The translations under genes were made by a program, and so were the position numbers. A model generated the notes under the pieces. That model was not told the DNA's origin. It was given only the letters and a program-made list of their open reading frames with translations, and did no database searches. From positions 1,257,793 to 1,321,792 of the forward strand of contig NZ_FNHB01000001.1 in NCBI RefSeq assembly GCF_900104455.1: a stretch of DNA of 64,000 nt, read 5' to 3'. Source of the DNA: Dendrosporobacter quercicolus. Its GTDB lineage: Bacteria > Bacillota > Negativicutes > DSM-1736 > Dendrosporobacteraceae. Below, in pieces: positions 14,722 to 37,234 of this stretch. The number at the start of each line of letters is the position of its first letter. Within the stretch, counting starts at the first letter, position 1.

Positions 14722-15252
14722 TTACGACACCCCTGCCAAATAATCAGTTATTCCCCTGGCTATCGCCCGGGCAAACTCATCTCGTTTACCGGCATCGGCC
14801 AATAATACCTCATCCTCCGGGTTTGAGATAAATGCCAATTCGACCAATACCGCAGGACAATCAGTATTTTTCAGCACATAAAATCCGGCCGTTTTAACTC
14901 CCCGGTCAACAGTACCAAGGCTATTGACTATCTGCCGCTGTATGCATCCTGCCAGTTTCTCCCCTTGCCCGCCAAGCGAATAACAATAGGTTTCGGTCCC
15001 CTGCGCCGCCCGATTTACCGCTGCATTGCAATGAATGCTAACAAATAAATCAGCGCCGAACCGGTTAGATGTATCTGTGATTTGATACAGTTCGTTTTTC
15101 TGTACTTCCAGCACTACGGCACCAATATCCCTTAGATACCCGGCCACCCGCTGCATAACGCCCTTAACAACAACGGCCTCCTGCAGGCCAGTTGCCCCTA
15201 CTGCCCCGGAATCTAATCCAGGGCAGTGGCCTCCGTTAATTGTAATTTTCAT
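14722..15252 (-). CDS. N-acetylmuramoyl-L-alanine amidase (Amidase_3 family) - lysis enzyme of the tail-like element
   Basis: Amidase_3 core (SIHCNA..., GTETYCY, ELAFISNPED); overlaps the holin-like gene upstream. Confidence 0.8.
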   Translation of the reverse strand: MKITINGGHCPGLDSGAVGATGLQEAVVVKGVMQRVAGYLRDIGAVVLEVQKNELYQITDTSNRFGADLFVSIHCNAAVNRAAQGTETYCYSLGGQGEKLAGCIQRQIVNSLGTVDRGVKTAGFYVLKNTDCPAVLVELAFISNPEDEVLLADAGKRDEFARAIARGITDYLAGVS

Positions 15253-15599
15253 GATGCGCGCTCCTTTTCAGATCCAATACGATCTTCAATATCATCCACT
15301 CGCTCCTTGATTTCGCCGACATTCTGATTTAGGCAGACCATCGTATTATTGATGTTGTTTAGGGCTTCCGTCTGCTTAGCAAGCGTATTGTTCACTAAAT
15401 CGCCCAGCCGTTCTTCTCTAACTTTGGCATCATCCATTGACTTGTTAAAAAACTCCTGCTGCCGGTCAGCCTGCTTGTCCGCCTTGCGGACAACATAAGC
15501 CAGCAGCGGCAGAAAACATATGACAAATAAAATAAACCCGATTAAGTTCGGGTTTTGTATGATATATGGTATTAATGATATGACTTGTATTGCTTCCAT
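15249..15599 (-). CDS. holin-like / lysis-associated membrane protein (single N-terminal TM plus coiled coil)
   Basis: 116 aa with TM LIGFILFVICFLPLLAYVV and a charged coiled-coil tail; directly 5' of and overlapping the amidase. Confidence 0.45.
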   Translation of the reverse strand: MEAIQVISLIPYIIQNPNLIGFILFVICFLPLLAYVVRKADKQADRQQEFFNKSMDDAKVREERLGDLVNNTLAKQTEALNNINNTMVCLNQNVGEIKERVDDIEDRIGSEKERAS

Positions 15600-15664
15600 T
15601 GCCCCACCCCATAAAAAAACAACCGCCTATTAGCGGCTGTTTCACACGTCATAATCTTACGACT

Positions 15665-15691
15665 AAAATAAAAAAAGAGGCTTAATGCCTC
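15665..15691 (-). terminator. candidate rho-independent terminator inside the 720-bp AT-rich gap
   Basis: Minus strand GAGGC-ATTAA-GCCTC followed by TTTTTTTATTTT. Confidence 0.35.
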
Positions 15692-16321
15692 TAAACATTA
15701 TCCATAACGTACAAATTGTGTATCGTTAATGACGGATTTTGTCTTTGTAATATTTCTAAAACTTTATATTTGACTACGCTTTCGTCCTCTATCCCCCAAT
15801 AGTAATGGCGTTCATGTGCATTCCCATAGCTTCATCAGGCATTCTCAAACTTAATTCCCCATTTTCTGAAAAAACAAAAGTGGTTCTCTTTAAATCCTGT
15901 TTCCCTTCAGCTTCAAATTGTGCGGTTAAAAGAATTAGAGCACACTACTCAAAAACCGTTCTTCATGTTTACTAATATCATAGGTAAATACGAATGTCAA
16001 CTTTTCCAATAATTCTTAGGGAAATACAGGTCTTTAAATGCGTGTTGAATTGTATTAATTACGATCATTAATCACGTCCCCACATTAAGATACCTTTATT
16101 TCTATTAATTATCTTAAGTGGTCGGAGATATTCCTTTATCGGAATAGTCTTTTTAGTTTGTTGCGATAAACGCTATACCCCGAAAGAGAATTACTCATAA
16201 TCATGACGGTATTCCCTCCTCGCACTTGATGTGACTACTCAATATTTTTTTAATGTTTACTTTTGTTTCGGATAGATTTTGCCTAGTCATAATAATGCCC
16301 TGCTCAATTTAAATAACCGCC

Positions 16322-16567
16322 TTAGCGATTTGCTGCGTCCTTGACCTGATCAGGCGTAAATCCTCGGTGTTCGCGTACTTGCTGAAAAATTTGCTCTACC
16401 TGCCCTGACTGTCCCTGCTGTTGTTTTGTCAGTTGCTGTTCCGCTATCCACATTTCTTGCACTTTTTGCTGCCTAAGTTGCTCTAATTGATTAATTTGCT
16501 CATTTAAGCGTTCCTGTTCTCTCCTAATGTCAAACGCCTCTGATTTTAATTGCATGATTTTGTCCAT
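16322..16567 (-). CDS. small Gln-rich coiled-coil protein (fibre-cassette B accessory)
   Basis: 81 aa; about 85% identical to ORF 22357..22599; lies directly 3' of tail fibre B. Confidence 0.55.
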   Translation of the reverse strand: MDKIMQLKSEAFDIRREQERLNEQINQLEQLRQQKVQEMWIAEQQLTKQQQGQSGQVEQIFQQVREHRGFTPDQVKDAANR

Positions 16568-16601
16568 GATAAAAAATCCTCCCTTAAATTAAAATAACCG
16601 C

Positions 16602-19600
16602 TTATGCGGTTTGATTCTTTAATTCGGCTATTTCAGCCGCTTGCTGATCTACTTTGGCCGATAGCTCCTGCACTGCCTTTATCAGCGGGCCGATAAACTC
16701 TGTATAGCGCAGACCGTGTGAGCCATCTTCTCCGATCGTAAATAATCCAATATCCCTTTCGCCCAGGACTTCCTCTACTTCCTGCGCGATCAAACCGGCG
16801 TGAGGGCGCTTACCGGGAAGTGGAGTTATTACTTCTTTGTACTTAGGCTGTTCCTTAGTAACTGCCGGAATAATAACTTCTTCTGTTATTTCTTCGGATA
16901 CAAGTTTTTCTTCTGTGACAGCTTCTTTTACTAGTCGTTCTTCGGTTACAGCTTCAGTAATTACATTTCCTTCTTCGTCCAGTTCCTCCGATTGGATAAC
17001 AACAGTTTCATATTTGGCTGGTTCTATAATGACAGTCTCATATTTTGCAGGGGTGACTACTCTAGTTTCAGTACGTTCTGGTTCTACTTCTACTGTTTCA
17101 GTTCCGTCTTCAACCTGGGATAATTCGTTTTGTCTGACTTTGTACTTAAATTCTACTGGACGAAGGGAGTTAACAAAATCCAGTCCTAAATCTAAATCTT
17201 TTATGTCAGTTTTCGATCTTTCATCGGAGGTATTAATGGTTGCACTAGCGGCAAAGATTTGTGACCACCTCAAGCCTGAACCGCCAAGGGCAAAATTATT
17301 ATCAACAGATGGCGCAAAAGCACCTGAATCTATAAAACATCTGTCTATATTATTCCTTCTGAAATTTATAGGAAGGTCCAAATTATTACCAATATACATA
17401 CCATTAGAATTTGCTGATATTCTGCCAATTATAGTATTATTTTGAGTAAACCCTAAGTATCCTCCAGTGGAACCATTTAGAATTAACGTTCCGTAATCAG
17501 AAGCATTAAATGCTGGGGATAATGTTCCAACGCTTACTATGTCATAAACATATTCCTTTTGTATATGCGACTCAGACCATCTATAACTACTAGCTCCTAA
17601 AAGATATGCATTATTGTTACCAGGTCGAATGCCATTAACATCTATATAGCACCTTGTAGCAATACCTCCACCTGCATATGTCCCTATCCCAAATGCTCCA
17701 ATTTCGCTTCCTGCTGTCGCAGTTTGGGCATAAGCATTAATTGTGCCATATGCGATATTTGCAGAAGCAGAACTCGCATTCCCTCCATGAAAAGTAATCC
17801 CTGCCGCAGCCGCCCCACTGGATAGTGTACTTGTTCTCTCTAAACCTATCATATAAGGAGACCCTGCGCGATTTATCCACAGCATGTAAGTATCATTTGT
17901 TGCTGTATTAGCATTTGGCCCTAACTTGATTAATCCCGTAAATCTCCCATGATCTGTAAATAGGGTAGACCACCTAAAATTAGACTGTCCGCAACTAAAA
18001 TTATTATCACTTGCTGGCCTAATGCCTTGATGGTTTACATATAACCTATCAAGTAGATTTCCTGCGGCGTTTCTTGTTGCAACCAAAAATCCACCTACTT
18101 CTGAACCTGCTGTTGCAGTTTCGCAAAAACCTGATGCTAAAGCGTAATCTAAGTTTGCGATTTGATTTGAGCTGTTACCTCCCCTAAACAATATTGCTCC
18201 TACTCTTTGATTTCCATTTAGTATCTCTGCCCTCTCTAATGCCATAGAAGTAGTGCCTAATGTTCTCGCATAGTAGACACTTGAATATACAGAAGCCCAT
18301 CTATTAGTTACTAATCCAAGCGCATCTGTATTATTTACACTGGGATAAAACCCTTTATAATCTAGATACATTTTTGTAACAGAATTATTTCCCTCACCTA
18401 TCTCGAACAATAATCCCCCCTTTTCTGCTCCGGCAGTAGAATCAGAAGCATAACTTATTATAGTTCCGTAGGGTAGTCTTGCGTTTGCATTAGACGCGCT
18501 GCCACCTCTTAGCTGTATCCCTGTGGCACGTGGGGCGGCAGATGTTATAAGGGCATTTCTTTCACCCAAGATAGAGACAGGATTTGCTGGCCTTGAAACA
18601 TGAAAAGTAGCTAGTGGATCATTTGTGCCTAATCCCAAAAATCCTCCAACCGTAATTCTCATTTGCTCAGTGAAGGAACTCTCCCCATATATTGCATTAG
18701 TGTTGCCACCAAATATAAGTGGCCCAAAAGATGAGAGCCTGACTCCTCCGGTAATTGTTGAATCAAAATCCAAATATCCCGCAGTACCAGAACCAAAAAG
18801 ATAGCCATTTCTAACGCCTGTAACAGTTGCATGAACAGATATTCCACTATTGCCTGCTCCTCCAGTATACACCTGAAATTGACTTGGTATTGAACTACTA
18901 GGTACACCTCCCAAGCCAAGTTTTCCAGATGGAGCGCAAGCTAATCTTGTAGCATAATCAAGACCGTCTGCTGATGTGTCGTGAAAGTCCAAATATTTTC
19001 CAATGTCCAAAACCCCTGTATTCCCAACATGCGGGACATAAGGCCAAGCTTGAGTATTGCTTTTATAAAGAAGAGGTATTCCTCCAATTACTACATTCCC
19101 ATTCGGAAATGATACAGTATCAATTGTCATTCCTGAGCGGTAAACCCCCATGAAGGTGGTAGCTGAACTGTAGTTATCATTTAACACCCTAAAAGCTATA
19201 GAATTATCACCCACCACTGCTCCCCAATATTTATTATCAGTCGAGGCATTTGTTTTAACTAAGTCAAACGAGGGGCTTGTATTTGATACTCTCACGGCTC
19301 CGGTAAAAATAGCTCCGCTTGATTTAGCAATCTCGTGCCAAACTCCCCATGTCCCATTTACCCATTGTCTTTCATATATCCGATTAGAGGTATCTCTGAA
19401 TCTTAGAAAAATCCAACCAGAAGAAGCACTATTATAAACTCCAGTTACACTTAAATATCCCCAAATACCCGATGAGTATGGGGCGTTAGTTATAGCCGTG
19501 CCACTAGATACTACTATGGAAAAATTTTTTACTGCGCCCATATAACCTGGTATAAACGCAAATAGGGCAGGCAGATCGTTAAAGTCGGTAATGCTGCTAC

Positions 19601-19976
19601 CAATCCCTTGCGACATTCGGGGAAAGTTCGTAATTGGTATCGTACCAAGAGTAGTTGCATCTCCTGTGATACTTGCGGGAAGTTTAGCTTCGGAGTTAAG
19701 ACGTAATAACTTATTTGCTGTAGCTGTGGTGACAACATCAGACGCAGCTACGGCATTCGTTATACCAAAACCTGCCAGGGTACTCGGCTTAGACAGGATG
19801 TTAGTCCAGGACGTTTTAACTATGCCGTCCTCCATTATTGCGCGAAGGCACTCAGCCCAAAAATCGTACAGCCCTAAATTGCTGTTAGTCATCAGAAACG
19901 GCGTTGTCTTGCCGTATGCCCCCACTCGAATTATATTGCCGCTGCCGTCGTACTGTGTTCCAAAGTTAAATGCCAC
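16602..19976 (-). CDS. tail fibre protein B (1124 aa) with C-terminal S74-type intramolecular chaperone domain
   Basis: N-terminal 80 aa conserved with fibre A (MAFNFGTQYDGSG...). Gly/Ser-rich beta-region with three about 100-aa internal repeats (RGG(N/S)xS...YGTI...TAG(S/A)E). C-terminal ...ASATINTSDERSKTDIKDL... then coiled coil, as in T5 pb1 / K1F endosialidase chaperone domains. Confidence 0.75.
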   Translation of the reverse strand: MAFNFGTQYDGSGNIIRVGAYGKTTPFLMTNSNLGLYDFWAECLRAIMEDGIVKTSWTNILSKPSTLAGFGITNAVAASDVVTTATANKLLRLNSEAKLPASITGDATTLGTIPITNFPRMSQGIGSSITDFNDLPALFAFIPGYMGAVKNFSIVVSSGTAITNAPYSSGIWGYLSVTGVYNSASSGWIFLRFRDTSNRIYERQWVNGTWGVWHEIAKSSGAIFTGAVRVSNTSPSFDLVKTNASTDNKYWGAVVGDNSIAFRVLNDNYSSATTFMGVYRSGMTIDTVSFPNGNVVIGGIPLLYKSNTQAWPYVPHVGNTGVLDIGKYLDFHDTSADGLDYATRLACAPSGKLGLGGVPSSSIPSQFQVYTGGAGNSGISVHATVTGVRNGYLFGSGTAGYLDFDSTITGGVRLSSFGPLIFGGNTNAIYGESSFTEQMRITVGGFLGLGTNDPLATFHVSRPANPVSILGERNALITSAAPRATGIQLRGGSASNANARLPYGTIISYASDSTAGAEKGGLLFEIGEGNNSVTKMYLDYKGFYPSVNNTDALGLVTNRWASVYSSVYYARTLGTTSMALERAEILNGNQRVGAILFRGGNSSNQIANLDYALASGFCETATAGSEVGGFLVATRNAAGNLLDRLYVNHQGIRPASDNNFSCGQSNFRWSTLFTDHGRFTGLIKLGPNANTATNDTYMLWINRAGSPYMIGLERTSTLSSGAAAAGITFHGGNASSASANIAYGTINAYAQTATAGSEIGAFGIGTYAGGGIATRCYIDVNGIRPGNNNAYLLGASSYRWSESHIQKEYVYDIVSVGTLSPAFNASDYGTLILNGSTGGYLGFTQNNTIIGRISANSNGMYIGNNLDLPINFRRNNIDRCFIDSGAFAPSVDNNFALGGSGLRWSQIFAASATINTSDERSKTDIKDLDLGLDFVNSLRPVEFKYKVRQNELSQVEDGTETVEVEPERTETRVVTPAKYETVIIEPAKYETVVIQSEELDEEGNVITEAVTEERLVKEAVTEEKLVSEEITEEVIIPAVTKEQPKYKEVITPLPGKRPHAGLIAQEVEEVLGERDIGLFTIGEDGSHGLRYTEFIGPLIKAVQELSAKVDQQAAEIAELKNQTA

Positions 19977-20001
19977 GTGGTAGCCTCCTTTCCTTTCTGT
20001 G

Positions 20002-20724
20002 TTAGTAATTAGTAACGTCTAAGACTAAATAATTGTACCTTGTTTGAAAGTAATTCCTCGTGGGGATATTCATGTCGCCCAAATAGTACGAGTAAAGCAA
20101 GTAAGAACCATTCACAGATAATTTAACATTCGTTGAACTAAAATCTATTGCCGGGCCTTGAAAGTGTACGTTTACGTGCTGTATCCCCGCCCCTGTCTCA
20201 TCACCATCACTAACTACATGTGTCGCTGTGGGAGCCTTCCCAACAACAACTGCCACATTATCAGGAGATGTTGTTGCGTATTCCCCAAAAACCCATTCCT
20301 CGTTAGAACCCGGCCAACTCCAACTATGTCCATCCTTTATTGCTCCACTTCCCGATGATAATACCTTCATGAACTTCGCGGCATCAGAGAAACAAATTTC
20401 TTCGTTTTCGTTCCTCACCTCAAAATATCGTCCCGAAGGAATGTTTGCAAAATCAAAAATATAGTAAGTAACTAATAAATCCCCTAAACCATCAGCGGGA
20501 TGATAAAACCAACTCCCTTCCTTGTAAGGAAGGGTATACACCCTTCTGCCAGCAGGGATTTTAAAAGCAATAATTTTTCCCTCTCCTGTGTCTACTGAAA
20601 TAGAGTAATTGTTGGTTTGCTGCTTTAGGGTAATAGTGCCTTTACTGACAAGCTGCAAATTCTTGTATTCGGCTGTAATTTGCAAAATCCCAGAATTATT
20701 ATAAATCTCTATTCCTGCTGCCAT
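20002..20724 (-). CDS. fibre-cassette B adaptor / assembly protein (240 aa)
   Basis: N-terminal MAAGIEIYNNSGILQIT and C-terminal LVLDVTNY conserved with ORF 25502..26167; divergent middle. Confidence 0.5.
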   Translation of the reverse strand: MAAGIEIYNNSGILQITAEYKNLQLVSKGTITLKQQTNNYSISVDTGEGKIIAFKIPAGRRVYTLPYKEGSWFYHPADGLGDLLVTYYIFDFANIPSGRYFEVRNENEEICFSDAAKFMKVLSSGSGAIKDGHSWSWPGSNEEWVFGEYATTSPDNVAVVVGKAPTATHVVSDGDETGAGIQHVNVHFQGPAIDFSSTNVKLSVNGSYLLYSYYLGDMNIPTRNYFQTRYNYLVLDVTNY

Positions 20725-22599: not shown

Positions 22600-22631
22600 A
22601 ATAAAATCCTCCCTTAAATTAAAATAACCGC

Positions 22632-25484: not shown

Positions 25485-25501
25485 GCGTTAGCCTCCTTTC
25501 A

Positions 25502-29400: not shown

Positions 29401-31445
29401 TGGGTAACCAATAAATTGTTGGCCAGCGTATAGTCGCCTTCCCGCTTAGCCTGCGAACGCCGCTTTACGCCAAACAACTGCAGCTGTGTCGGCGTGTCAT
29501 CGGCAATCGAACTGACTGCCCAATCCTCCGAACGAACCTGAAATTGAGTGTTTTTAAAATCGTTTTCGGTATCCGAAAAAATGACTTCAACAGATTTTGT
29601 CCGATCCTCGATTCCGGTAAAACTGCCCTGGAAGCTGGACATAACTGTACGTCCTTCGCCGAAAACCTGAGTCATAACCCCAGGTTTGTCACAGACAATG
29701 CTGATGTTGTTGCCCCTGAGCATTATCGTGGCGTGACCGACAGTAGCCGCCTTTTGCGCAGCAACTTGCCGTTTTAGGGCAGTATCAAAAAAGGCGTCAA
29801 ATTCAAAGCGGTTCTCCGGGCCGTCCGGGCCTTCAATCTGTCCGTCGGCATAGGCGGCGGCCTCCATCCATTCGTCCCAATACGGGTCAAGTCGGTCATG
29901 TTTGATACCAAATACAACGTATTCATCTTGACCGGTGTTGATATTTCTCAGCAGCCGGCACTGATGGTAGATGTCATAGGCCGCCCAAATTGGATTATTA
30001 GCGCGCTTGGCTTGATATTGTTTCGTATACGGGTTCCATGCATAAACGGTGTCCCGCCGCTGCCGCCAAGTAACACTGGGGATACCGCCAGACAGTTGCC
30101 CGGTTGCCAGTATCCGCAGGCCAATTAAAACTTTGTTCGGCCGGCAAAAATTGCCGTAAATCACAGTTGTAAGTCGCGTCCAGTATACAGTCGTGGAATC
30201 TCGGGTACCAGACACCGCCGAACGCGCTTTAACCCGCATCCTGACCTCATATTTCCCGGGCGCAAGATTTTCAAGGCTGTAGGAACGGCGAACTGCGGTA
30301 TTTTGCGCGGCTGTAATACGGGCTGTGCTTGCTGTGACGATGGTGTATGTGCCTATCCTCGGGACAACAAATGATATTTTACCATTATCATATAGCTCAC
30401 CAGGGCGAAGGTTGCTAGCCATTTTACCAGAAACACTGCCCTTAAGAGACATAACTCCTAAGCACAGAATTGTCCACGTTTCCGCCGGCGCATCGGCAGC
30501 GCATTTAGCGCCGGCAATCCCGCTCGATGCTACATAGGTACTGCCCAACCAATTCTGCCACTCACCACCGACAAGCCTGTACTGAGATTCTAATTCAACC
30601 CAGGCGTTTGTCAGGTTCCCCTTATCATTCAAATGGTAAAGGCCGCTGGGAAATTCCACACTAACCTGTAGGCCCTGGGCGTCCGTATTGTCGGCAACGT
30701 ATGTCGCCCAGGCGTCTTGCAGCTCATGGGAAATTTCCTGGTTGTTGGTGGTATTGCCCAAATAGGTTATGGCAGTTTGGTCGTTTGTACCTAACCGGGT
30801 TTCAATTTGCACGTCAGTGTAATTTTCGATAGGGTTATCACCGATTTTGATATTGCTGATTTCGTCAACCGGCCCCATGCCACCGCAAAACAACAGGTTA
30901 AGATATTGCTTATCGTCAACTGTGTCAAGATGGCTTTCCAATAGTTGCGGCGCTGGGATGCACTCACCATAGGTCACGCCGACCACGCCGCCTTCACCGG
31001 TGATAGGCTTTGGCAGGTCCCAGCCGTAGGTTTGGGTGGTTTCTTGCGATGATAAGCCGGACCGTTCCACTGGGACAAGCGCGTTTATGATTTTGCCACC
31101 AAGCACTGCTACAGTACCGGAGGCAAGGCAAGAGGCAATCGATCCTTTTCCAAGACCCCACAGCCCGTCCGCAACCTTCCCCGTATAAGCCGCCAATGCT
31201 ACGCTGGCAATCACGCCAAGTATCTTTTTAAAACTACCTCCGCCAACATGCGGCATAACAATGATCTGGTCACCGTCGCAGGGATAAGTCGTTTCCGGCT
31301 GCTCCACCCAATTACCGTTGAGTATAAATTCTATATTCTCATCCGGAATATACGTCCGCAGGCTTTGCCCTGGGATAAAATGAACGCGCTCAGTTTCCCG
31401 GCGCGTCCTGTCAAACGGATTTTCAATTTTTATAATTTCCAGCAC
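26469..31445 (-). CDS. lambda gpJ-like host-specificity / central tail fibre protein (1658 aa)
   Basis: Size, position after K/L/M homologues, FN3-like repeats, coiled-coil and beta-rich C-terminal part that is duplicated in the pseudogene. Confidence 0.7.
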   Translation of the reverse strand: MLEIIKIENPFDRTRRETERVHFIPGQSLRTYIPDENIEFILNGNWVEQPETTYPCDGDQIIVMPHVGGGSFKKILGVIASVALAAYTGKVADGLWGLGKGSIASCLASGTVAVLGGKIINALVPVERSGLSSQETTQTYGWDLPKPITGEGGVVGVTYGECIPAPQLLESHLDTVDDKQYLNLLFCGGMGPVDEISNIKIGDNPIENYTDVQIETRLGTNDQTAITYLGNTTNNQEISHELQDAWATYVADNTDAQGLQVSVEFPSGLYHLNDKGNLTNAWVELESQYRLVGGEWQNWLGSTYVASSGIAGAKCAADAPAETWTILCLGVMSLKGSVSGKMASNLRPGELYDNGKISFVVPRIGTYTIVTASTARITAAQNTAVRRSYSLENLAPGKYEVRMRVKARSAVSGTRDSTTVYWTRLTTVIYGNFCRPNKVLIGLRILATGQLSGGIPSVTWRQRRDTVYAWNPYTKQYQAKRANNPIWAAYDIYHQCRLLRNINTGQDEYVVFGIKHDRLDPYWDEWMEAAAYADGQIEGPDGPENRFEFDAFFDTALKRQVAAQKAATVGHATIMLRGNNISIVCDKPGVMTQVFGEGRTVMSSFQGSFTGIEDRTKSVEVIFSDTENDFKNTQFQVRSEDWAVSSIADDTPTQLQLFGVKRRSQAKREGDYTLANNLLVTQFVDISTDIDAMVSQYGDIVGLNHAVSQIGIASGRLVAATEDSITLDKTVLLSPGKSYEIIISLATDKLVKRYIVAVAKDTETDTLTVTESFGIIPEKYDNYVFGEVNKSVKPFRLVGVTKNGDFKCQLKLAEYVEGVYDGDLNYPVVDYTPPAAGTLEVSNLSVSFRVGWQGYGTVVPVIYCSWQLPSMSVKSVIVYYSADDGATWTKWSDMLATEAQINGVKLQERYLVKVCTVNELGLTSAGVVSDPIYITDEDLPAPEHVTNIFITENNQNQGNNVVLNELYVACTPPDSLYYSHAEWYIKSHNPGVNEYDLTDPAFYDVPVEDIGAMLDNWKLVDGAAKDNITIKNLILGETYSIKVVAVNTLGKKADFDTAPVKTHTITGKTTIPSTPDNFVVQITDVATCTWTRIPDTDCDFYELRADQNPGVNAGLLARTASTKALPTLAERQGTLYLYAHNTAGTVGKYSVPASYSYYKAPPPMPQNVTITGIFQGFRLTTEALPTHCIGINVHVDGQVYFSNNNTYTYEARSGIFQIQVAFVDIFGEGALSPVELVEVQSQIAIGELEDAAQEAIEKAQKSVAQETFNNAMEAVDGAMEVINDAVTELGETTVSKTEFTETKNELALVDTENRTLISQTTEFVSVMNGKLASAPDAPGQFESIAALNVKNNQIALVVNENKTATDNAIAAVDIKANQISQTVASNKQDADGKIETLTGQINAVPGKITAAVTEAKQDITNNQIAPVVTRVAAIEVTTEGITNTVSGLQTQVDGKAANWVYSGVPTLSNQPAVNWNTAALKEKHLGDIYYDTSGKAAYVFSKAGATYSWQGITADVDLSEIQSQINQQNNQISSIVTSTLANTQVTAILQMLQGLYFRAADGSLQSLLVITPTEVYINTGYLRIAANTKIDGNVIASGMIQAGAVKAGHLESNTVSAMFANFGTFVSAGADGSKTTISGPLITVHHPNGKLAARFGRW

Positions 31446-31447
31446 TA

Positions 31448-31834
31448 TTACTCACCTCGTGGCACATAAAATCCAATAATATTGCTCTGCCAGCGCTTAA
31501 TCCGGTCAATAATCACACCGGTTTTACTATAGGCGTGGATAAACTTCCCGTTACCAATATATACGCCGACATGATTGGCCCAGCTGACGCAGCTTAACTG
31601 GATGACTACCAGGCAAGGCACTGGCAAGGGTTGCTTTACTTCTACCCAGGCCGGGGCCTCTGTTGCCATTTGGTCGCCAATTTTTTGGGCGTCCATTGCA
31701 GATATTCGGTAATCGGGCAGCTCCCGGCCATAACGCCGGTAAACTTCCAGAGCCATCCCCCAGCAATCGAAGGTTTCCTGGCCTCTGCCGCCGTCTTGAA
31801 AGGGCTGGCCAATAAGATCATCAATTTTTACCAA
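31448..31834 (-). CDS. NlpC/P60-domain tail assembly protein (lambda gpK-like)
   Basis: 128 aa with a Cys-His papain-like core (FDCWGMALEVY ... H); placed between L-like and J-like genes as in lambda. Confidence 0.65.
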   Translation of the reverse strand: MVKIDDLIGQPFQDGGRGQETFDCWGMALEVYRRYGRELPDYRISAMDAQKIGDQMATEAPAWVEVKQPLPVPCLVVIQLSCVSWANHVGVYIGNGKFIHAYSKTGVIIDRIKRWQSNIIGFYVPRGE

Positions 31835-31907: not shown

Positions 31908-32498
31908 TTAGGCTGATTGCATCCCTTTTTCCCCATTGTAGCGCTCCCTGATTTGACAAGTTGACAGCGTATTGTCGCAGGGTTCTTCATTGCCGGCATA
32001 GCCGCACATAATATCCTTAAAATAATGCGGACAAAAATCCCTGATATACCGCCAAAACGGAAACCGGAAACTGTGATCGTTGGACGCTCCGATATTAAAC
32101 GTTACCCATTGCTCATCATAGTCAGTTTTAATTATGATATAATCCATTTCAAATTCCGGAACGGGATTATCCAAATGGGCCGCATGAACAATCATCAGCT
32201 TAACAGGAGCGTCACAGAAGCCTTTGTGCTGCTGGACATACGTCTGGACCATACCGCCAACATTACTGACCTTGAGGCTAACCGACGGGAGTTCTTTTCC
32301 ATCCTCGCTTGTAATTTTGTCTAAGTCAATCGGGAAACGTATCCACGAGTGACCGTTCCAGGCAATATCCTCATTATTGCGAACCAACCGGATGGGTTCT
32401 GCCAACCCAGGAACGTCCAATTGCACCAACAAGAGAAATGGAGCGTCATTGGCCAGCTTGTTTTTTTCAAGTATGCCCGCAAGGGACCAATTAAGCAT
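31908..32498 (-). CDS. minor tail protein L-like (C-terminal 4-Cys cluster)
   Basis: 196 aa ending CPHYFKDIMCGYAGNEEPCDNTLSTC, reminiscent of the lambda gpL Fe-S motif; synteny. Confidence 0.55.
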   Translation of the reverse strand: MLNWSLAGILEKNKLANDAPFLLLVQLDVPGLAEPIRLVRNNEDIAWNGHSWIRFPIDLDKITSEDGKELPSVSLKVSNVGGMVQTYVQQHKGFCDAPVKLMIVHAAHLDNPVPEFEMDYIIIKTDYDEQWVTFNIGASNDHSFRFPFWRYIRDFCPHYFKDIMCGYAGNEEPCDNTLSTCQIRERYNGEKGMQSA

Positions 32499-32724
32499 AA
32501 AAATGTCTCCTTTTCAAAAGACTGTCACTAAGCAGGAATAAAATAATATGATTTAGCACAACATGGTTGGCGTATCGCCGCCCAGTTCAAAAGTATTGCG
32601 GACAATCCGGATGCCGGTGTCCCGGTCAATCTGAATTTCCAGCAGAATTAGGCCATACCCCGTCTGAGGCCAGCTTGTTCTTTTCCAGGATCGCCACTTT
32701 AGATAAATCAAGGGCCATGGTCGA

Positions 32725-33093
32725 CTATACCTCCTGTAGTTTAAATTCCCCCGAATACTGACCCGGACCAACCAAATCAAACCGTATCTCTCCGCTTATA
32801 AACCGGACTGTAAACACCTTTTTACTATAGGCGTCATCCGGCACCTCAGGATAAGTCCAGTAGAATTCCCGGCTGCCGCCTAGGACGACATCCTTCCAGA
32901 ATGTGCGCAGAGCATGATAGTCCCTCGCCGGCAGAGCCTGCCATTTTAGACGAAAAGTTTCCCTGACCCTGGTAAATTTAGGTCGGGAGACAATGTAGCC
33001 GTTTTCCATTTTGGAAGTTAACGCCGGATCTTCCCACTCGCTGCTGAACGGATAACAAGGCTGCTGTATCTCAGGAAATTCCGGTAAAGTCAT
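32725..33093 (-). CDS. minor tail protein M-like
   Basis: 122 aa; position between the tape-measure-like and L-like genes. Confidence 0.45.
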   Translation of the reverse strand: MTLPEFPEIQQPCYPFSSEWEDPALTSKMENGYIVSRPKFTRVRETFRLKWQALPARDYHALRTFWKDVVLGGSREFYWTYPEVPDDAYSKKVFTVRFISGEIRFDLVGPGQYSGEFKLQEV

Positions 33094-33097
33094 AGTT

Positions 33098-34159: not shown

Positions 34160-34481
34160 TATTATCCCTCCTTATTATGCAAAAGTGCCCGTAGTTCCAA
34201 CTGCCTCAGTTTCTCAAACAAACCTGGCGTTATTTTCATTCGGTAGACGGCCGCGATCCGAAATACCGCGGTATAATCCAGGCCGATCATACCGCCTAAA
34301 CCCACGCGCCATTGGGTGTTTACCAGCCGCCAGAGTTCAAAAACCCGGCGATTGCCCGGACATATTGCCGGGCAACTGCCTTTACAGCCATGACAATTTA
34401 TGGGCTTCGCGGTCTGTTTTTGACGTACGCGGCAGGCCTCACAGTAACTGTTCCGGCCTTCCGCATACCAATCCCAGACCG

Positions 34482-34727
34482 CTATAAGTTTTTTACTTCA
34501 TCCTCTTCCGCCTTAATTGTCAGTTCATAAGTACGATACGCCAGATTGCGGCATTTAGGATAAGGCTGACCAGAGAAATCACAGTCTTGATAAATATTTT
34601 TTAACATCCAGCCGACAATATCGCGTTCACGCTGCGGCGTTATTTTTTGATCCGTAAACATTGGGTCCAGGCCAGCATCGATAAAAGCTTCTCGTTCCGC
34701 ATAAGTCATTGCTCTTGCTCCAGGCAT
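34482..34727 (-). CDS. tail assembly chaperone-like small protein (gpG position)
   Basis: 81 aa ORF between the major tail and tape-measure genes. The 320-nt uncoded gap downstream (34160..34480) could hold a frameshift-extended T part. Confidence 0.35.
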   Translation of the reverse strand: MPGARAMTYAEREAFIDAGLDPMFTDQKITPQRERDIVGWMLKNIYQDCDFSGQPYPKCRNLAYRTYELTIKAEEDEVKNL

Positions 34728-34757
34728 GATATCCTCCCTAACTAAAATTATTTACTT

Positions 34758-35708
34758 TTAAGCATAGCTTTCCACGCTATTGACCAACGTTGCCTTAACA
34801 GCGGTGTGATCCGTATTGCTCTGATAAAAAGCCTGAAAAGGCAAGGAGATCAGCACGCCTGCCGGACCGGTAATGCCTGGCGAACTGCGTTCGTAGAGTA
34901 TTTCCGGAAACAGAAACTCCAGACTATGATTGTTTGCGGCAAAATTCACTTTTAGACTGGACTTTGTTCCGTCCAATGCTTTTTGCAGCAAATCAGGACC
35001 GTCAAACAGCGCGGTAATGCTGCCGCTTATTTTGTATATCCCTGCAGGAATGTCACTGCGGCAGCCGTTATTGCCTATGGTATACTGATTGCCGTCAAGT
35101 CCGGTATTAATCGTAAATTCTCCTTTGGTAACAGTAGCCAGAACAGAGCCGCCCTCTTCCACGCGGCCATGCATGTTATTGAATGCTGCAAAGGGAATAA
35201 CTGCCGGAGTTTCCGCATAAGGAGCCGCTGAAAGCCGTTCCTGTCCGCCCATGATTTCTATGGCGGCGGTTAATTCATCTTCCCCGCCAAACGCCAGTTT
35301 GAATGAGCTGATCTTACAACCATTTAGCAGCACATATTGACCAATATCGGTAAAGCCTTTTTCCAGCACCATGGACGGCTGGGTATTTCCCACCTTAAAA
35401 ACATGTCGATACGGTGCTGCCGCGCCAGTTGTTACAGGATTGCCGAACAGACCTTTAAGCCAATATCCGACAGCACTGTCATCAAGCGGCGTTACAATAC
35501 TGCCGTCTACGCTGACATTGCCGGAAGACGGTTCTACCGGATTGCGCGTGCCGGTTATCGTAGCCGGGTCTTTCATATTCTGCTTGGATTTTACGTCAAA
35601 CGTGTTGAAGGGAAGAACTTTCGCGTTTTTCGACACCGGATTTTGGCCATATACCGTTTCAAAATCCAATAATAGCCTGCCTTGTGCTCCTACTGCCTGT
35701 TTCATCAT
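34758..35708 (-). CDS. major tail (tube) protein candidate
   Basis: 316 aa from ATG 35708 with GGAGGA RBS; first structural gene downstream of the conserved promoter motif at 35862. Confidence 0.5.
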   Translation of the reverse strand: MMKQAVGAQGRLLLDFETVYGQNPVSKNAKVLPFNTFDVKSKQNMKDPATITGTRNPVEPSSGNVSVDGSIVTPLDDSAVGYWLKGLFGNPVTTGAAAPYRHVFKVGNTQPSMVLEKGFTDIGQYVLLNGCKISSFKLAFGGEDELTAAIEIMGGQERLSAAPYAETPAVIPFAAFNNMHGRVEEGGSVLATVTKGEFTINTGLDGNQYTIGNNGCRSDIPAGIYKISGSITALFDGPDLLQKALDGTKSSLKVNFAANNHSLEFLFPEILYERSSPGITGPAGVLISLPFQAFYQSNTDHTAVKATLVNSVESYA

Positions 35709-35861
35709 TATCTTCCTCCAAAATAATTTTTCTTCACCTGCGCCTTCTTTCAGCAGGCTTCTATTCAATGAATGGGGCCAGCCTCACAACCTCCGTTTTA
35801 TCCTGTCCGACCAATATGGCAGATCCGGTTATTATGCCGCCGGGTTGCTGGTATTCAGAAT

Positions 35862-35887
35862 CTCCCTCTATTCTTTATCCGTACAAG
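35862..35887. promoter_or_regulatory. conserved about 24-nt motif copy A (CTCCCTCTATTCTTTATCCGTACAAG), upstream of the structural operon
   Basis: Same motif recurs at 37388..37411 and 37507..37530. Confidence 0.5.
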
Positions 35888-36497
35888 ACAGAGTTGATTT
35901 ATGCAATTCAATTGATGTTTTCTTTTGTTTTTTATAAAAGGATAATAACCAAAGCATACCCGGTCAGGCTGGCAAGTCATACCAATCGGTAACGGGTAAC
36001 CCTAACGGCCTCCCCGTTGAATCATAAAGGCAATAACCTGCAAAATAAACTCCAACTCCAGCCGAAATGTATCCGGCTGTACGATATACGTTGTCAATTC
36101 GTTTATGGGCTGATTTTATCGACTCATGAGCCTGAACGCGCGCCTGGCATGGCGGCACTGTGCAACTACAATATCCATCCCCCCAAGCTTATTTAACTGA
36201 TAATTGCCGCAGGCGGTGGCTGCTGACATTGGCGTCTGTATCATTCCAGTTGTGTTCTTTGGCAATCGCGTTTTTAATGTGCCGAAAGTATTGCGCATAT
36301 CAGCGCTTGACAGAGCGCTGTTGGCCGCAGGCTTATTTGAGTCAAAACCCATTTTTATGACATTCCCGTCACTTAAATCTTCTTACCGGCTTTTATTCTA
36401 TATGCCTCACCCCCTCACTGCCTGCCCTTTCAACAGGATGTTAGTACCGAGGGCCGGGTACTGCGTTCCTTACGAAACCACACACGGCTTTCTCTTT

Positions 36498-36974
36498 TTA
36501 GTGCAGACTGTTCTGGACTAATTTTGCACGTTTATTTAAATAGCTGGTCAGTCTGTTAAACGCCTGACTTGCATGTGAGGCCGCCGTAGCGGCGCTAATG
36601 CCCATAGCGGTACTAATTTCTTTATATTCATAGCCTTGCTGCAAAAGCAGAATTACCCGTTGCTGACGCGGACTTAGGTGCTTAATCCCCTGATCAATAT
36701 CCACAATAATGCACAGCAGCTCCTCTTTTGCCGTTCTGGCTCCTGTTTTCCCTACTCTATCCAGCCTGTTTGCAACATATTCCAACGAACTGCGTACTTG
36801 CTGATATCGTTTAATCGTATTAGCGATTTGCTCACTTCGATAGTCTTCAAATTTTCTTATATCTGCTTTAATCACGCTTACTCTCCTCCTCAAATCAGCC
36901 ATCTGATCAAGTTGCATTGGCTGGACTAACCGGCCTGTCAGCAGCGTTCCCTCTTCACCGAGCTCCGCTTGCAA
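36498..36974 (-). CDS. sigma-70 region-4-containing regulator (phage late sigma factor, Xpf/ECF-like)
   Basis: C-terminal RQQRVILLLQQGYEYKEISTAMGISAATAASHASQAFNRL is a sigma-70 r4 / LuxR-type HTH; 158 aa. Confidence 0.6.
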   Translation of the reverse strand: MQAELGEEGTLLTGRLVQPMQLDQMADLRRRVSVIKADIRKFEDYRSEQIANTIKRYQQVRSSLEYVANRLDRVGKTGARTAKEELLCIIVDIDQGIKHLSPRQQRVILLLQQGYEYKEISTAMGISAATAASHASQAFNRLTSYLNKRAKLVQNSLH

Positions 36975-37234
36975 TTTCCCCGCGAATAATGATAGGTCTG
37001 CGATGGTGAACCGTTAAGTAACATATCGATGAGATACGTTGAATATAAATGAATATTCATCTTATAATAGCGTTTGTTACTTCTACGCCAGTAAACATCT
37101 AATGTGTTTAACAGATTATGAATGGTTTGGGCCTTTTCTTGAATTTTATCCTCAGGCCAGTTTGGCTGCTCTCGCCGGTACATCTCCCGGAGCATATCTA
37201 TAGTGTAATATAACATAATACTCCTCCTTAACAA
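36938..37234 (-). CDS. hypothetical small regulatory protein (98 aa) upstream of the sigma-like gene
   Basis: ORF overlapping the start of the sigma-like gene; no recognisable motif. Confidence 0.35.
   Translation of the reverse strand: MLRRSIMLYYTIDMLREMYRREQPNWPEDKIQEKAQTIHNLLNTLDVYWRRSNKRYYKMNIHLYSTYLIDMLLNGSPSQTYHYSRGNCKRSSVKRERC

What the first reader, a model, noticed from the sequence alone, without database searches (positions are those of the whole stretch)
14722..37234. Tail-only lambda-like module with lysis cassette and its own sigma factor: F-type tailocin (monocin-like) rather than a prophage
Going right to left the locus encodes a regulator, an Xpf-like sigma factor, the major tail protein, a chaperone, a short tape-measure protein, M-, L-(4-Cys) and K-(NlpC/P60) like proteins, a 1658-aa J-like central fibre, two side-fibre cassettes, a holin-like protein and an Amidase_3 lysin. 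No capsid, portal, terminase, protease, integrase or DNA-replication gene is present anywhere between the direct repeats. That is the signature of a phage-tail-like bacteriocin released by lysis (F-pyocin, monocin, diffocin logic). The 353-aa tape measure predicts a very short tail tube (about 50 nm at 1.5 Angstrom per residue).
Basis: partly seen in the sequence, partly recalled or inferred. Interest (0 to 1): 0.8.

Follow-up and report, generated by a model that had tools for sequence, protein, structure and literature searches.

The report
Headless phage-tail bacteriocin locus in Dendrosporobacter
A 23-kb block in the oak bacterium Dendrosporobacter quercicolus encodes a complete lambda-type flexible phage tail, a cell-lysis pair and its own regulators but no head or DNA-packaging genes, so it is most likely a phage-tail-like killing particle (F-type tailocin), a kind not found in the searched literature for this bacterial class (Negativicutes).

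Summary
Window 14681-37624 (minus strand) in Dendrosporobacter quercicolus encodes tube, G/G-T chaperone with an intact -1 slippery site, a 353-aa tape measure, M-, L- (4 Cys) and K-like (NlpC/P60) proteins, a 1658-aa J, two fibre cassettes, a holin-like protein and an Amidase_3 lysin. No head, terminase, portal, integrase or replication gene was detected in the 64 kb, and both flanks are host genes.

Comparisons support a domesticated F-type tailocin over a decaying prophage:
- Tail-only relatives lie directly beside host genes in Pelosinus and Lucifera.
- The Pelosinus tail genes show purifying selection (dN/dS 0.03-0.17, like host genes).
- Related complete phages have heads and tape measures of 897-1114 aa.

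By gene order the locus is closest to F-pyocin (lambda V to J), not monocin.

The "sigma factor" is only partly supported. It is a 120-134-aa sigma-region-4/GerE-type HTH protein without region 2, always paired with a rare ~55-aa-core small protein.

New here:
- The same regulator pair and a bipartite DNA motif (invariant TGTACGGATA half, lineage-specific upstream half that co-varies with the HTH helix) also head R-type contractile tail-only clusters in relatives.
- The element is bracketed by ~485-bp direct repeats of a host response-regulator gene end.

All function is inferred; nothing was tested experimentally.

The parts
14196..14680 (+). Left direct repeat: the 3' third of the LytTR response-regulator gene (13603-14511) plus a bidirectional terminator hairpin (14603-14645).
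   Evidence: 480/483 identical to 37625-38107; Response_reg + LytTR; 20-bp stem terminator.
14722..15252 (-). Endolysin: N-acetylmuramoyl-L-alanine amidase, 176 aa, with no signal peptide and no wall-binding domain.
   Evidence: Amidase_3, 3.7e-39; phrog_435 endolysin, 3.9e-57; sequence.
15249..15599 (-). Holin-like protein, 116 aa: N-terminal hydrophobic segment and charged coiled-coil tail. Its stop overlaps the amidase start.
   Evidence: sequence; phrog_1625 'involved in bacteriocin production or immunity', 6e-8. No Pfam holin family reached threshold.
15600..16321 (-). Non-coding spacer of 720 bp before the lysis genes. It holds a degenerate copy of the cis motif (15696-15715) and two terminator-like hairpins.
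   Evidence: no Rfam match.
16322..20724 (-). Fibre cassette 2, distal part: 240-aa protein (20002-20724), 1124-aa fibre with endosialidase-type stalk and S74 intramolecular chaperone (16602-19976), 81-aa coiled-coil protein (16322-16567).
   Evidence: Peptidase_S74 1e-12, End_tail_spike 4.4e-7, tail fibre/spike PHROGs; phrog_4062.
20727..21035 (-). 102-aa protein of the family encoded just after J in related phages; paralogue of 26168-26482.
   Evidence: phrog_2427, 2e-24; 36% identical to the 154-aa gene after J in L007.
21022..22326 (-). Broken duplicate of the J C-terminus (J residues ~1242-1658), in three pieces with frame changes. It is a relic of the tandem duplication or recombination that brought in cassette 2.
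   Evidence: repeat families D2, D3; tblastn: 82%, 53% and 81% identity in frames -3, -1, -3.
22357..26482 (-). Fibre cassette 1: 104-aa protein (26168-26482), 221-aa protein (25502-26167), 950-aa fibre with S74 chaperone (22632-25484), 80-aa coiled-coil protein (22357-22599).
26469..31445 (-). J-like central fibre / tip protein, 1658 aa. Its N-terminus weakly resembles the lambda I-type tail assembly protein.
   Evidence: FNIII-A_GpJ 3e-13, Phage-tail_3; phrog_31 4.5e-121; phrog_32 2e-4; TipJ family 2.6e-36; full-length alignment to the phage L007 J.
31448..31834 (-). K-like NlpC/P60 protein, 128 aa; no MPN domain detected.
   Evidence: NLPC_P60, 9e-14; phrog_329.
31908..32498 (-). L-like minor tail protein, 196 aa, with a C-terminal four-cysteine motif.
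   Evidence: Phage_tail_L, 3.4e-8; TIGR01600; sequence.
32626..32718 (-). 30-codon fragment that duplicates the N-terminus of L; a recombination scar.
   Evidence: called as a 30-aa gene; 60-65% identical to residues 2-21 of L homologues.
32725..33093 (-). M-like tip protein, 122 aa.
   Evidence: phrog_384, 6e-9; 42-57% identical to the gene between the tape measure and L in tail-only relatives and in phage L007.
33098..34159 (-). Tape measure protein, 353 aa.
   Evidence: C-terminus matches phrog_22443 at 1e-8 and tape-measure phrog_5062 at 7.7e-4; 29% identical over its full length to the 419-aa Pelosinus protein in the same position.
34174..34727 (-). Tail assembly chaperone pair. G is 81 aa (34482-34727). 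The T frame (DUF1799, 34174-34479) has no start codon. It is fused to G by -1 slippage at A_AAA_AAC (34488-34494).
   Evidence: sequence; DUF1799, 9.2e-11; homology to the T genes of L005 and L007; the same heptamer is present in Pelosinus loci and in complete phages.
34758..35708 (-). Major tail tube protein, 316 aa.
   Evidence: Phage_tube_2, 6.7e-54; 185 homologues; called as 316 aa.
35868..35910 (-). Promoter-like element P3, 160 nt upstream of the tube gene start: TTGCATAAAT..N..TTGTACGGATAAAGAATAG.
36116..36352 (-). Frameshifted remnant of the first gene that follows the regulators in the R-type relative L010; probably not a functional gene.
36498..36917 (-). Sigma-region-4 / GerE-type HTH protein (called as 125-134 aa); the putative activator or sigma-like factor of the element.
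36938..37216 (-). Small helical protein, 92 aa (conserved core ~55 aa). It is paired with the HTH protein at every fetched locus where the adjacent DNA is held and a tail cluster is attached.
37400..37552 (-). Promoter-like elements P2 (core 37400-37409) and P1 (37511-37529), upstream of the regulator operon.
37625..38107 (+). Right direct repeat: a partial copy of the LytTR domain (ORF 37656-37940) plus the same terminator.
   Evidence: Short-read assemblies break here.

Best explanation
The block 14681-37624 is a domesticated, tail-only derivative of a lambda-like siphophage of diderm Firmicutes. In other words, it is an F-type tailocin locus of Dendrosporobacter quercicolus.

Proposed working (shown = read from the sequence or computed; inferred = deduced from known systems):

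1. Regulation (motifs shown; roles inferred). An unknown trigger raises expression of the two-gene regulator operon: the 92-aa helical protein and the sigma-4/GerE-type HTH protein. This operon carries two copies of the element's own bipartite promoter-like motif, which suggests positive autoregulation.
2. Structural operon (inferred). The same motif upstream of the tube gene switches on a ~20-kb operon.
3. Assembly (inferred from lambda and F-pyocin). J (with an I-like N-terminus), K, L (putative Fe-S protein) and M build the tip. The 353-aa tape measure, held by G and the frameshift product G-T, sets the length. Tube hexamers polymerise to roughly 12-13 rings, about 50-55 nm.
4. Specificity (inferred). 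Two kinds of side fibre, each matured by an S74 self-cleaving chaperone domain, provide target specificity.
5. Release (inferred). The holin-like protein and the cytoplasmic Amidase_3 lyse the producer and release the particles.
6. Killing (inferred). Particles bind related Negativicutes and kill by breaching the envelope without delivering DNA.
For: Gene content and integrity:
- The gene set is complete and collinear with the tail modules of complete relatives. These relatives have 897- and 1114-aa tape measures. L007-9 share the G-T-tape measure-M-L-K-J order, whereas L005 has RcGTA-type distal tail genes.
- The programmed frameshift site is intact.
- No head, packaging, integrase or replication genes occur in the 64 kb; both flanks are host genes.

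Conservation:
- Tail-only relatives with the same regulators sit directly beside unrelated host genes in Pelosinus fermentans and P. baikalensis and in Lucifera butyrica, whose cluster ends in a GH25 lysin.
- Further tail-only examples occur in metagenomes.
- P. fermentans versus P. baikalensis: dN/dS is 0.03-0.17 for tube, G, tape measure, M, L, K and J, against 0.06-0.09 for flanking host genes. dS is comparable in both sets. The fibre has dN/dS 0.40. This is the pattern of a vertically inherited, selected element whose receptor-binding part evolves fast.

Regulatory module:
- The same regulator pair and motif also head R-type contractile tail-only clusters.
- The motif was not found in the held stretches of the complete phages.

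Precedents:
- F2 pyocin corresponds to lambda gpV-gpJ and encodes its terminator elsewhere (PMC13455828).
- Rhizoviticin needs its own sigma-type regulator (PMC10811719).
Against: - There is no experimental evidence for particles or for killing.
- No tail-terminator homologue was found in the cluster.
- No spanin-like gene for outer-membrane disruption was found, although the host is diderm.
- The element carries scars: a broken J duplicate, an L N-terminal fragment and a remnant ORF.
- The ~485-bp flanking repeats suggest a recent rearrangement or acquisition rather than an old fixed locus.
- The tape-measure assignment rests mainly on position and weak profile hits.
- Selection was measured in Pelosinus, not in Dendrosporobacter, for which only one strain is available.
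- The downstream (lysis) end of the Pelosinus clusters was not seen.
Confidence: 0.75

Rival explanations
1. Cryptic prophage remnant. A lambda-like prophage lost its head, packaging and lysogeny modules by deletion. What remains is a decaying tail and lysis block with no current function.
For: Scars of rearrangement are present: a broken J C-terminal duplicate, an L N-terminal fragment and a remnant ORF p78. No terminator gene was found. The flanking 485-bp repeats with only three mismatches suggest a recent event. The tape measure is unusually short.
Against: All core tail genes are full-length against phage homologues, and the frameshift signal is intact. The same tail-only layout, with dedicated regulators, recurs in three genera at different chromosomal sites. 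In Pelosinus it evolves under purifying selection at host-like dS. The short tape measure is shared by the Pelosinus clade (353 and 419 aa) rather than being a private deletion.
Confidence: 0.12
2. Tail-supply module for a head encoded elsewhere. Under this reading the locus is one part of a split gene-transfer agent, or a donor of tails to a tail-less capsid-forming element, and not a killing particle.
For: RcGTA-type systems scatter head, tail-fibre and lysis genes over several loci (established knowledge). A Pelosinus prophage carrying a related tube protein has RcGTA-type distal tail genes: DUF2460, Phage_BR0599, Rcc01698_C. The rest of the D. quercicolus genome could not be inspected.
Against: No head-tail joining, terminator or connector gene accompanies the tube gene, unlike in the related phages, where four such genes precede it. 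The regulators and motif also drive R-type clusters that start directly with sheath and tube genes. The cluster has its own lysis pair. The tape measure is far shorter than in any related complete phage.
Confidence: 0.06
3. Part of a complete prophage that extends beyond the repeats or beyond the window.
For: None was found. The only weak point is that 8-10 kb to the left of the window could not be fetched.
Against: Immediately outside the repeats lie host genes. On one side is a histidine kinase/response regulator pair and the den type II polyketide cluster. On the other is an RNA-repair island, followed by ABC transporters, guaA and menaquinone genes. A tblastn search with head proteins of related phages finds nothing in the 64 kb.
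Confidence: 0.02

Closest known systems
F-type pyocins of Pseudomonas aeruginosa (F2 pyocin, pyoF cluster)
   Same: Both are non-contractile, lambda-derived and tail-only. Gene order corresponds to lambda gpV, G/T, H, M, L, K, (I), J followed by fibre genes, with duplicated fibre-region genes. No terminator gene lies in the cluster. Release is by a lysis cassette (PMC13455828; here).
   Different: There is no detectable close sequence relationship. Cultured-phage tube homologues are below 30% identical, and the tube belongs to the Phage_tube_2 family. The host is a diderm Firmicute. Regulation is by a small protein plus a sigma-4/GerE-type HTH protein with a dedicated motif, not by PrtN/PrtR (own knowledge). 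I is apparently fused to J. The tape measure is only 353 aa. The element is bracketed by 485-bp repeats rather than sitting in a conserved trpE-trpG-type site (own knowledge).
Monocin of Listeria monocytogenes (F-type, TP901-1-like)
   Same: An F-type tail-only bacteriocin in the Firmicutes, with a regulator region, structural genes, and holin and lysin at the end of one cluster (PMC11830787).
   Different: Monocin uses a Dit/Tal-type baseplate and encodes its own terminator FtbF. Its tape measure is 622 aa, with 22 tube rings and a length of ~103 nm. The present locus has lambda-type M/L/K/J tip genes, no terminator gene and a 353-aa tape measure.
Rhizoviticin of Allorhizobium vitis (F-type tailocin)
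   Same: A headless prophage-like region whose tail and lysis genes depend on a locus-encoded sigma-type regulator (PMC10811719).
   Different: Rhizoviticin keeps an early-phage region with an integrase remnant, replication genes and a LexA-family repressor. None of these is present here.
PBSX of Bacillus subtilis and its positive factor Xpf
   Same: A defective phage-derived element switched on by its own sigma-like factor and released by lysis (own knowledge).
   Different: PBSX makes heads and packages host DNA, and has a contractile tail. Xpf is a sigma-70-family protein. Here only a region-4-type HTH is detectable.
R-type tail-only clusters of Pelosinus fermentans (CP010978, locus L011) and of a Dendrosporobacter relative (L010), both uncharacterised
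   Same: They carry the same regulator pair (66-87% identical HTH protein, 68-85% identical small protein) and the same promoter-like motif.
   Different: The structural genes are those of a P2-like contractile tail: sheath, Phage_tube, gpD, V, U, W and J baseplate.

Membership tests
F-type tailocin (non-contractile phage tail-like bacteriocin) | Encodes a complete non-contractile tail: tube, chaperones, tape measure, tip or baseplate, and fibres. No sheath. | tested here: met
   There are no sheath or R-type homologues in the window. A terminator gene was not found, but F2 pyocin also lacks one in its cluster.
F-type tailocin (non-contractile phage tail-like bacteriocin) | Lacks capsid, portal, terminase, replication and integration genes. 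| tested here: met
   Pfam, PHROG and NCBIfam scans of all ORFs and gaps in the element and of both flanks. tblastn with head proteins of related phages. Only this 64-kb window was searched, not the whole genome.
F-type tailocin (non-contractile phage tail-like bacteriocin) | Own lysis cassette for release. | tested here: met
   Holin-like protein plus Amidase_3 at the 3' end, with overlapping stop and start codons. No spanin was found.
F-type tailocin (non-contractile phage tail-like bacteriocin) | Maintained by selection as a host trait: conserved tail-only synteny under purifying selection. | tested here: met
   Tail-only relatives occur in Pelosinus and Lucifera beside host genes. dN/dS is 0.03-0.17 with host-like dS in Pelosinus. 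This was not testable within Dendrosporobacter, where only one strain is available.
F-type tailocin (non-contractile phage tail-like bacteriocin) | Produces headless particles that kill related strains. | not testable with these tools
   Needs induction, electron microscopy and killing assays.
Lambda-like tail tip module (gpM-L-K-I-J) | Homologues of L (with a Cys cluster), K (NlpC/P60) and J (TipJ) in the lambda order, preceded by the tape measure and a G/G-T frameshift pair. | tested here: met
   M is assigned by position and by homology to relatives only. There is no separate I gene, only a weak I-like match at the J N-terminus. K lacks a detectable MPN domain.
Monocin / TP901-1-like F-type tailocin | Dit/Tal-type baseplate hub and a cluster-encoded terminator. 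| tested here: not met
   The tip genes are lambda-type L/K/J. No terminator homologue was found. Compared against the monocin structure paper.
Sigma-70 family sigma factor (ECF/Xpf-like) | Region 2 (core binding and -10 recognition) together with region 4. | tested here: not met
   Only Sigma70_r4_2 and GerE match. TIGR02937 scores 30.2 bits against a cut-off of 42.9. The AF2 model is a long helix plus an HTH. Foldseek hits cover sigma-4 domains only, with E of 0.09 or more. PDB profile hits favour NarL/GerE HTH domains.
Temperate prophage with att sites | An integrase, and short att core repeats at the junctions. | tested here: not met
   No integrase or recombinase is present. The flanking repeats are ~485 bp of host gene plus terminator, not a short core.

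The most novel reading that the evidence does not exclude
Sporomusaceae (Dendrosporobacter, Pelosinus, Lucifera and relatives) may possess a dedicated, portable 'tailocin switch'. It consists of a rare ~55-aa-core helical protein plus a ~120-aa protein that has only a sigma-region-4-type HTH. Together these would act as a two-subunit sigma factor, or as an obligate activator pair, on a bipartite promoter. One half of that promoter is lineage-specific and co-varies with the HTH recognition helix. The other half, TGTACGGATAA..GAAT.G, is invariant. The switch would have been coupled repeatedly to tail modules of different ancestry (lambda-like F-type and P2-like R-type). In D. quercicolus the F-type module would have replaced an R-type-associated cassette downstream of the switch. 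The resulting element makes an unusually short (~50 nm) flexible tailocin that sits beside the dendrubin antibiotic cluster.
Probability: 0.25. Interest if true: 0.7.

Novelty: new member of a known kind. Interest (0 to 1): 0.55.

Why it matters
- **Rarity.** Few F-type tailocins have been characterised: F-pyocins, monocin, rhizoviticin and the recently described efagins. None of the literature searches run here linked tailocins to Negativicutes, Pelosinus or Sporomusa.
- **Extension of the kind.** A lambda-type tail-only element in a diderm Firmicute extends F-type tailocins to a lineage with an unusual envelope.
- **A natural length experiment.** The tape measure is 353-419 aa here, against 897-1114 aa in sister phages. 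This can show how short a flexible tail can be and still kill.
- **A common regulatory handle.** The shared regulator pair and promoter motif offer a practical way to induce both F- and R-type particles in genetically intractable anaerobes. They also give a search key for finding more such loci.
- **Genomic context.** The locus sits next to the dendrubin polyketide cluster. This suggests that small-molecule and particle-based antagonism are encoded in one genomic neighbourhood.

Tried and rejected
- **Phage DNA search.** blastn of the tail core against 50,697 phage genomes gave no match. The protein-level search found only homologues below 30% identity, in phages of Gram-negative hosts.
- **Viral contigs.** The single-protein scan of IMG/VR with the tube protein found nothing.
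- **Exact-protein look-ups.** Several failed because ORF starts were ambiguous. As a result the 8-10 kb left of the window, where synteny with L010 predicts a possible R-type cluster, could not be inspected.
- **Two-subunit sigma idea.** AF2 models of both regulator proteins had moderate confidence (pLDDT 73 and 69). Fold and sequence searches of the 92-aa protein against the PDB gave nothing. The idea is therefore neither supported nor excluded.
- **Tail terminator.** The proteins encoded just upstream of the tube gene in phages L005 and L007 and in Lucifera have no match in the window.
- **Spanins.** No candidate ORF lies around the lysis genes.
- **Rfam.** No family matched in 12000-40000.
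- **Defence systems.** PADLOC found only WYL-domain hits in the right flank and nothing in the element.
- **Promoter scan.** The sigma-70-type promoter scan was no better than shuffled sequence.
- **Integrated phage with att sites.** Rejected: no integrase is present, and the repeats are 485 bp of host gene.

Full report
**Source and layout**

Exact protein look-ups place the window in Dendrosporobacter quercicolus, a member of the Negativicutes (Sporomusaceae), on a 1.32-Mb contig.

All genes of the finding lie on the minus strand. The element is bounded by two near-identical direct repeats, 14196-14680 and 37625-38107 (480/483 identical). Each repeat consists of the last third of a LytTR response-regulator gene (13603-14511) plus its bidirectional terminator. 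The unique DNA between them, 14681-37624, is 22.9 kb. Short-read assemblies of the same strain break at these repeats, which is what a true repeat would cause.

**Checking the observation**

| Gene | Coordinates | Evidence |
|---|---|---|
| Amidase_3 endolysin | 14722-15252 | E=3.7e-39; phrog_435 3.9e-57 |
| Holin-like, 116 aa | 15249-15599 | hydrophobic N-terminus, coiled-coil tail; phrog_1625 'involved in bacteriocin production or immunity' 6e-8; stop overlaps the amidase start |
| Fibres, 1124 and 950 aa | 16602-19976, 22632-25484 | Peptidase_S74 intramolecular chaperone domains |
| J, 1658 aa | 26469-31445 | phrog_31 4.5e-121; FNIII-A_GpJ; TipJ family |
| K-like, 128 aa | 31448-31834 | NlpC/P60 |
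| L-like, 196 aa | 31908-32498 | Phage_tail_L; C-terminal C-x8-C-x8-C-x6-C motif |
| M-like, 122 aa | 32725-33093 | position, plus homology to relatives |
| Tape measure, 353 aa | 33098-34159 | position; weak tape-measure PHROG hits |
| Tube, 316 aa | 34758-35708 | Phage_tube_2, 6.7e-54 |

The chaperone deserves a fuller description than 'a chaperone'. The 81-aa G gene ends ...GTA AAA AAC TTA TAG. The -1 frame from the canonical slippery heptamer A_AAA_AAC (34488-34494) opens into a ~100-codon frame that has no start codon. That frame is a DUF1799 domain (E=9.2e-11), the T part in related phages. The same heptamer is present in the Pelosinus loci and in two complete phages. The lambda-type G/G-T programmed frameshift is therefore intact.

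**Absence of other phage modules**

- Every remaining ORF and gap inside the element was scanned, and no head, packaging, integrase or replication domain appeared.
- The left flank is a histidine kinase/LytTR regulator pair followed by the den type II polyketide (dendrubin) cluster with its exporters (PMC7693217).
- The right flank is an RNA-repair island (CCA-adding enzyme, WYL proteins, RtcB, RlaP). Beyond it lie ABC transporters, guaA and futalosine-pathway genes.
- tblastn with terminase, portal, capsid and scaffold proteins of the closest complete phages, and with R-type sheath and baseplate proteins, finds nothing in the window.

**Relatives**

The tube protein has 185 database homologues at E of 1e-10 or better. 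Genomic context was obtained for several.

Complete phages or prophages:
- A Pelosinus sp. UFO1 prophage (L005) and a widespread Caudoviricetes lineage (L007-L009) carry the tube gene, at 43-46% identity.
- In these it follows terminase, portal, capsid and four connector-type genes. It precedes G, T(DUF1799) and a tape measure of 1114 or 897 aa.
- L007-9 continue with M-L-K-J, while L005 has RcGTA-type distal tail genes.

Tail-only relatives:
- In Pelosinus fermentans and P. baikalensis (L001, L002; tube 69-70% identical), the cluster begins directly after host genes: Fe-hydrogenase, amino-acid permease, GGDEF protein, thioredoxin-reductase-like protein. It consists of regulators, tube, G, T, a 419-aa tape measure, M, L, K, J and a fibre.
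- In Lucifera butyrica (L006) a rearranged tail-only cluster lies between a pyruvate formate-lyase gene and a histidine kinase gene, and ends in a GH25 lysin.
- Further tail-only examples occur in IMG/VR and metagenome contigs.

Selection. The two Pelosinus species share the same flanks, so I computed Nei-Gojobori rates:

| Gene | dN/dS |
|---|---|
| Tube | 0.07 |
| G | 0.03 |
| Tape measure | 0.17 |
| M | 0.06 |
| L | 0.12 |
| K | 0.06 |
| J | 0.17 |
| Flanking host genes | 0.06-0.09 |
| Fibre | 0.40 (79% amino-acid identity) |

dS is 0.09-0.23 for the tail genes and 0.19-0.26 for the host genes. This is the pattern of a vertically inherited, selected host trait whose receptor-binding part evolves fast. 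It is not the pattern of a decaying prophage.

**The regulators**

The 'sigma factor' (36498-36917; called as 125-134 aa) matches only Sigma70_r4_2 and GerE.
- Its best sigma-family score, TIGR02937, is 30 bits against a cut-off of 42.9.
- A profile of seven homologues hits NarL/GerE-type HTH domains in the PDB more strongly than it hits sigma factors.
- An AF2 model (pLDDT 73) shows a long N-terminal helix plus an HTH. The HTH superposes on sigma-4 domains at about 1 Å, but no sigma-2 domain is present.

The claim of an Xpf-like sigma factor is therefore not established.

The upstream 92-aa 'regulator' has no family, fold or PDB match. It belongs to a very small family: 27 clusters at 50% identity among 1.84 billion proteins, with a conserved core of ~55 residues. 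A homologue lies next to the HTH gene at every fetched locus that holds the adjacent DNA and a tail cluster. The exceptions are L019, L020 and L023. In Dendrosporobacter-type loci the small-protein gene precedes the HTH gene. In Pelosinus F-type and Lucifera-type loci it follows it.

**A conserved cis element**

The 10-mer TGTACGGATA occurs exactly three times in the window, all on the coding strand of the element:
- twice upstream of the regulator operon (cores 37519-37528 and 37400-37409);
- once 160 nt upstream of the tube gene start (35876-35885).

Among the loci held, it recurs on the gene strand upstream of genes in the tail-only loci and is absent from the complete phages. Later-fetched tail-only loci mostly carry it too, though none was found in L014.

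Aligned, the element is bipartite. The downstream half, TGTACGGATA(A/G)(A/G)GAAT.G, is invariant across genera. A block about 20 nt upstream differs by lineage and co-varies with the HTH recognition helix:
- tctgcat(g)aaat goes with helix ATAASH (Dendrosporobacter, L010, L011, L016);
- acctaNC..ttt goes with helix T(I/V)(K/R)FH (Pelosinus F-type and Lucifera-type loci).

This supports the HTH protein binding the upstream half. What reads the invariant half is unknown. Candidates are the small partner, the N-terminal helix, or host sigma-A.

A degenerate copy (TTGTACGttatGGATAATG, 15696-15715) followed by two terminator-like hairpins precedes the holin gene. This may delay lysis, but that is inference.

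**The same switch on a different tail**

A contig from a close relative of D. quercicolus (L010; ~78% nucleotide identity in the den/ABC flank) carries the small protein at 85% identity, the HTH protein at 83-87% identity, and both upstream motifs. There they are followed by a contractile-tail cluster with sheath, Phage_tube, Phage_TAC_7 and tail X genes.

In the complete genome of P. fermentans (L011), host genes are followed directly by the small protein, the HTH protein, a motif and a P2-like sheath-tube-baseplate cluster, with no head genes in the 10 kb upstream or between the regulators and the sheath gene.

DNA homology between L010 and the window runs from motif P1 through the HTH gene and into the first ~150 nt of the next gene. 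In D. quercicolus that next gene survives only as the frameshifted ORF at 36116-36352. The simplest reading is that an F-type structural module with its own motif copy (P3) was recombined in downstream of a regulator cassette that elsewhere serves R-type clusters.

**Other scars**

- The two 'fibre cassettes' are a diverged tandem duplication. Cassette 2 starts with a copy of J residues ~1242-1658 that is broken into three frames (21022-22326). It then continues with intact paralogues of the 104-aa and 221-aa proteins, a different fibre, and the small coiled-coil protein.
- A 30-codon duplicate of the L N-terminus lies between M and L (32626-32718).

These marks point to recombinational exchange of host-range modules, which is common in tail loci. 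The core genes are untouched.

**Comparison with known systems**

By gene order the locus corresponds to lambda gpV-gpJ. This is exactly how the F2 pyocin cluster is described. That cluster also lacks its terminator gene, which is encoded elsewhere (PMC13455828). The missing terminator here is therefore a gap, not a refutation.

Monocin is only a functional analogue. It has a Dit/Tal baseplate, its own terminator, a 622-aa tape measure, 22 tube rings and a length of ~103 nm (PMC11830787). Scaling by monocin, or by lambda (853 aa for about 32 rings; own knowledge), 353 aa predicts about 12-13 rings, or ~50-55 nm.

Rhizoviticin sets a precedent for a tailocin that depends on its own sigma-type regulator, but it still retains early-phage genes (PMC10811719).

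No paper in the searchable library links tailocins with Negativicutes, Pelosinus or Sporomusa.

**Verdict**

The element is best explained as an F-type tailocin locus (confidence about 0.75). It is a new member of a known kind in a class where none was found reported. It is closest in architecture to F-pyocin and independent of it in sequence.

The points that go beyond 'another tailocin' are:
- the conserved short tape measure;
- the regulator pair with its bipartite, co-varying motif, shared between F- and R-type clusters;
- the unexplained 485-bp host-gene repeats bracketing the element.

Unresolved questions:
- the inducing signal, since no repressor gene is present;
- the terminator;
- outer-membrane disruption in the absence of a spanin;
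- whether the HTH protein is a sigma factor, half of a split sigma, or an activator.

All functional statements are inferences from sequence and comparison.

Noticed in passing
window 4040-11966 (and exporters at 952-3797): This is the den type II polyketide synthase cluster: KS-alpha 10374-11705, chain-length factor 9124-10377, ACP 11730-11966, cyclases and a ketoreductase. It is the published dendrubin locus of D. quercicolus (PMC7693217). The tail element therefore lies next to an antibiotic gene cluster, separated from it only by a histidine kinase/LytTR regulator pair.
   Followed up: partly
window 14196-14680 and 37625-38107: These ~485-bp direct repeats (480/483 identical) are the 3' end of the host LytTR response-regulator gene plus its terminator. 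No integrase is present. This suggests single-crossover (Campbell-type) insertion of a circle, or a segmental duplication. The right copy leaves a stand-alone LytTR-domain ORF at 37656-37940.
   Followed up: partly
L010 9349-20375 and L011 9810-20231: R-type (contractile, P2-like) tail-only clusters occur in a Dendrosporobacter relative and in Pelosinus fermentans CP010978. Both are headed by the same small-protein/HTH regulator pair and the TGTACGGATA motif. P. fermentans thus appears to have both R- and F-type clusters.
   Followed up: partly
L010 10540-14758: Five or six extra genes, including a radical-SAM enzyme, sit between the regulators and the R-type tail genes. The window ORF 36116-36352 is a frameshifted remnant of the first of them.
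   Followed up: partly
L020 2109-8328: A homologue of the sigma-4/GerE-type protein lies between three GH18 chitinase genes and a Phage_holin_4_1 holin, with no tail genes. The same regulator family may therefore also control holin-dependent enzyme release.
   Followed up: no
L014 7234-7869: A 211-aa protein with a T6SS_Tdi1_C (immunity-protein-like) domain is encoded between the tape-measure-like gene and M in a Lucifera-type tail-only cluster.
   Followed up: no
window 38128-47303: This is an RNA-repair-type island: CCA-adding enzyme, two WYL-domain proteins, RtcB split into two ORFs, a Band_7 protein, two RlaP nucleotidyltransferases and an HTH protein. The CCA enzyme clusters at 90% identity or more with that of Pelosinus propionicus, which suggests recent horizontal transfer.
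   Followed up: no
window 15600-16321: A 720-bp non-coding spacer lies between the structural operon and the lysis genes. It contains a degenerate motif copy and two terminator-like hairpins immediately before the holin ribosome-binding site. It has no Rfam match.
   Followed up: partly
L006 9491-9988; L014 4706-5182; L021 712-1200: Lucifera-type tail-only clusters carry a conserved ~165-aa gene directly upstream of the tube gene. It is a possible terminator or completion protein, and it has no counterpart in the Dendrosporobacter or Pelosinus clusters.
   Followed up: no
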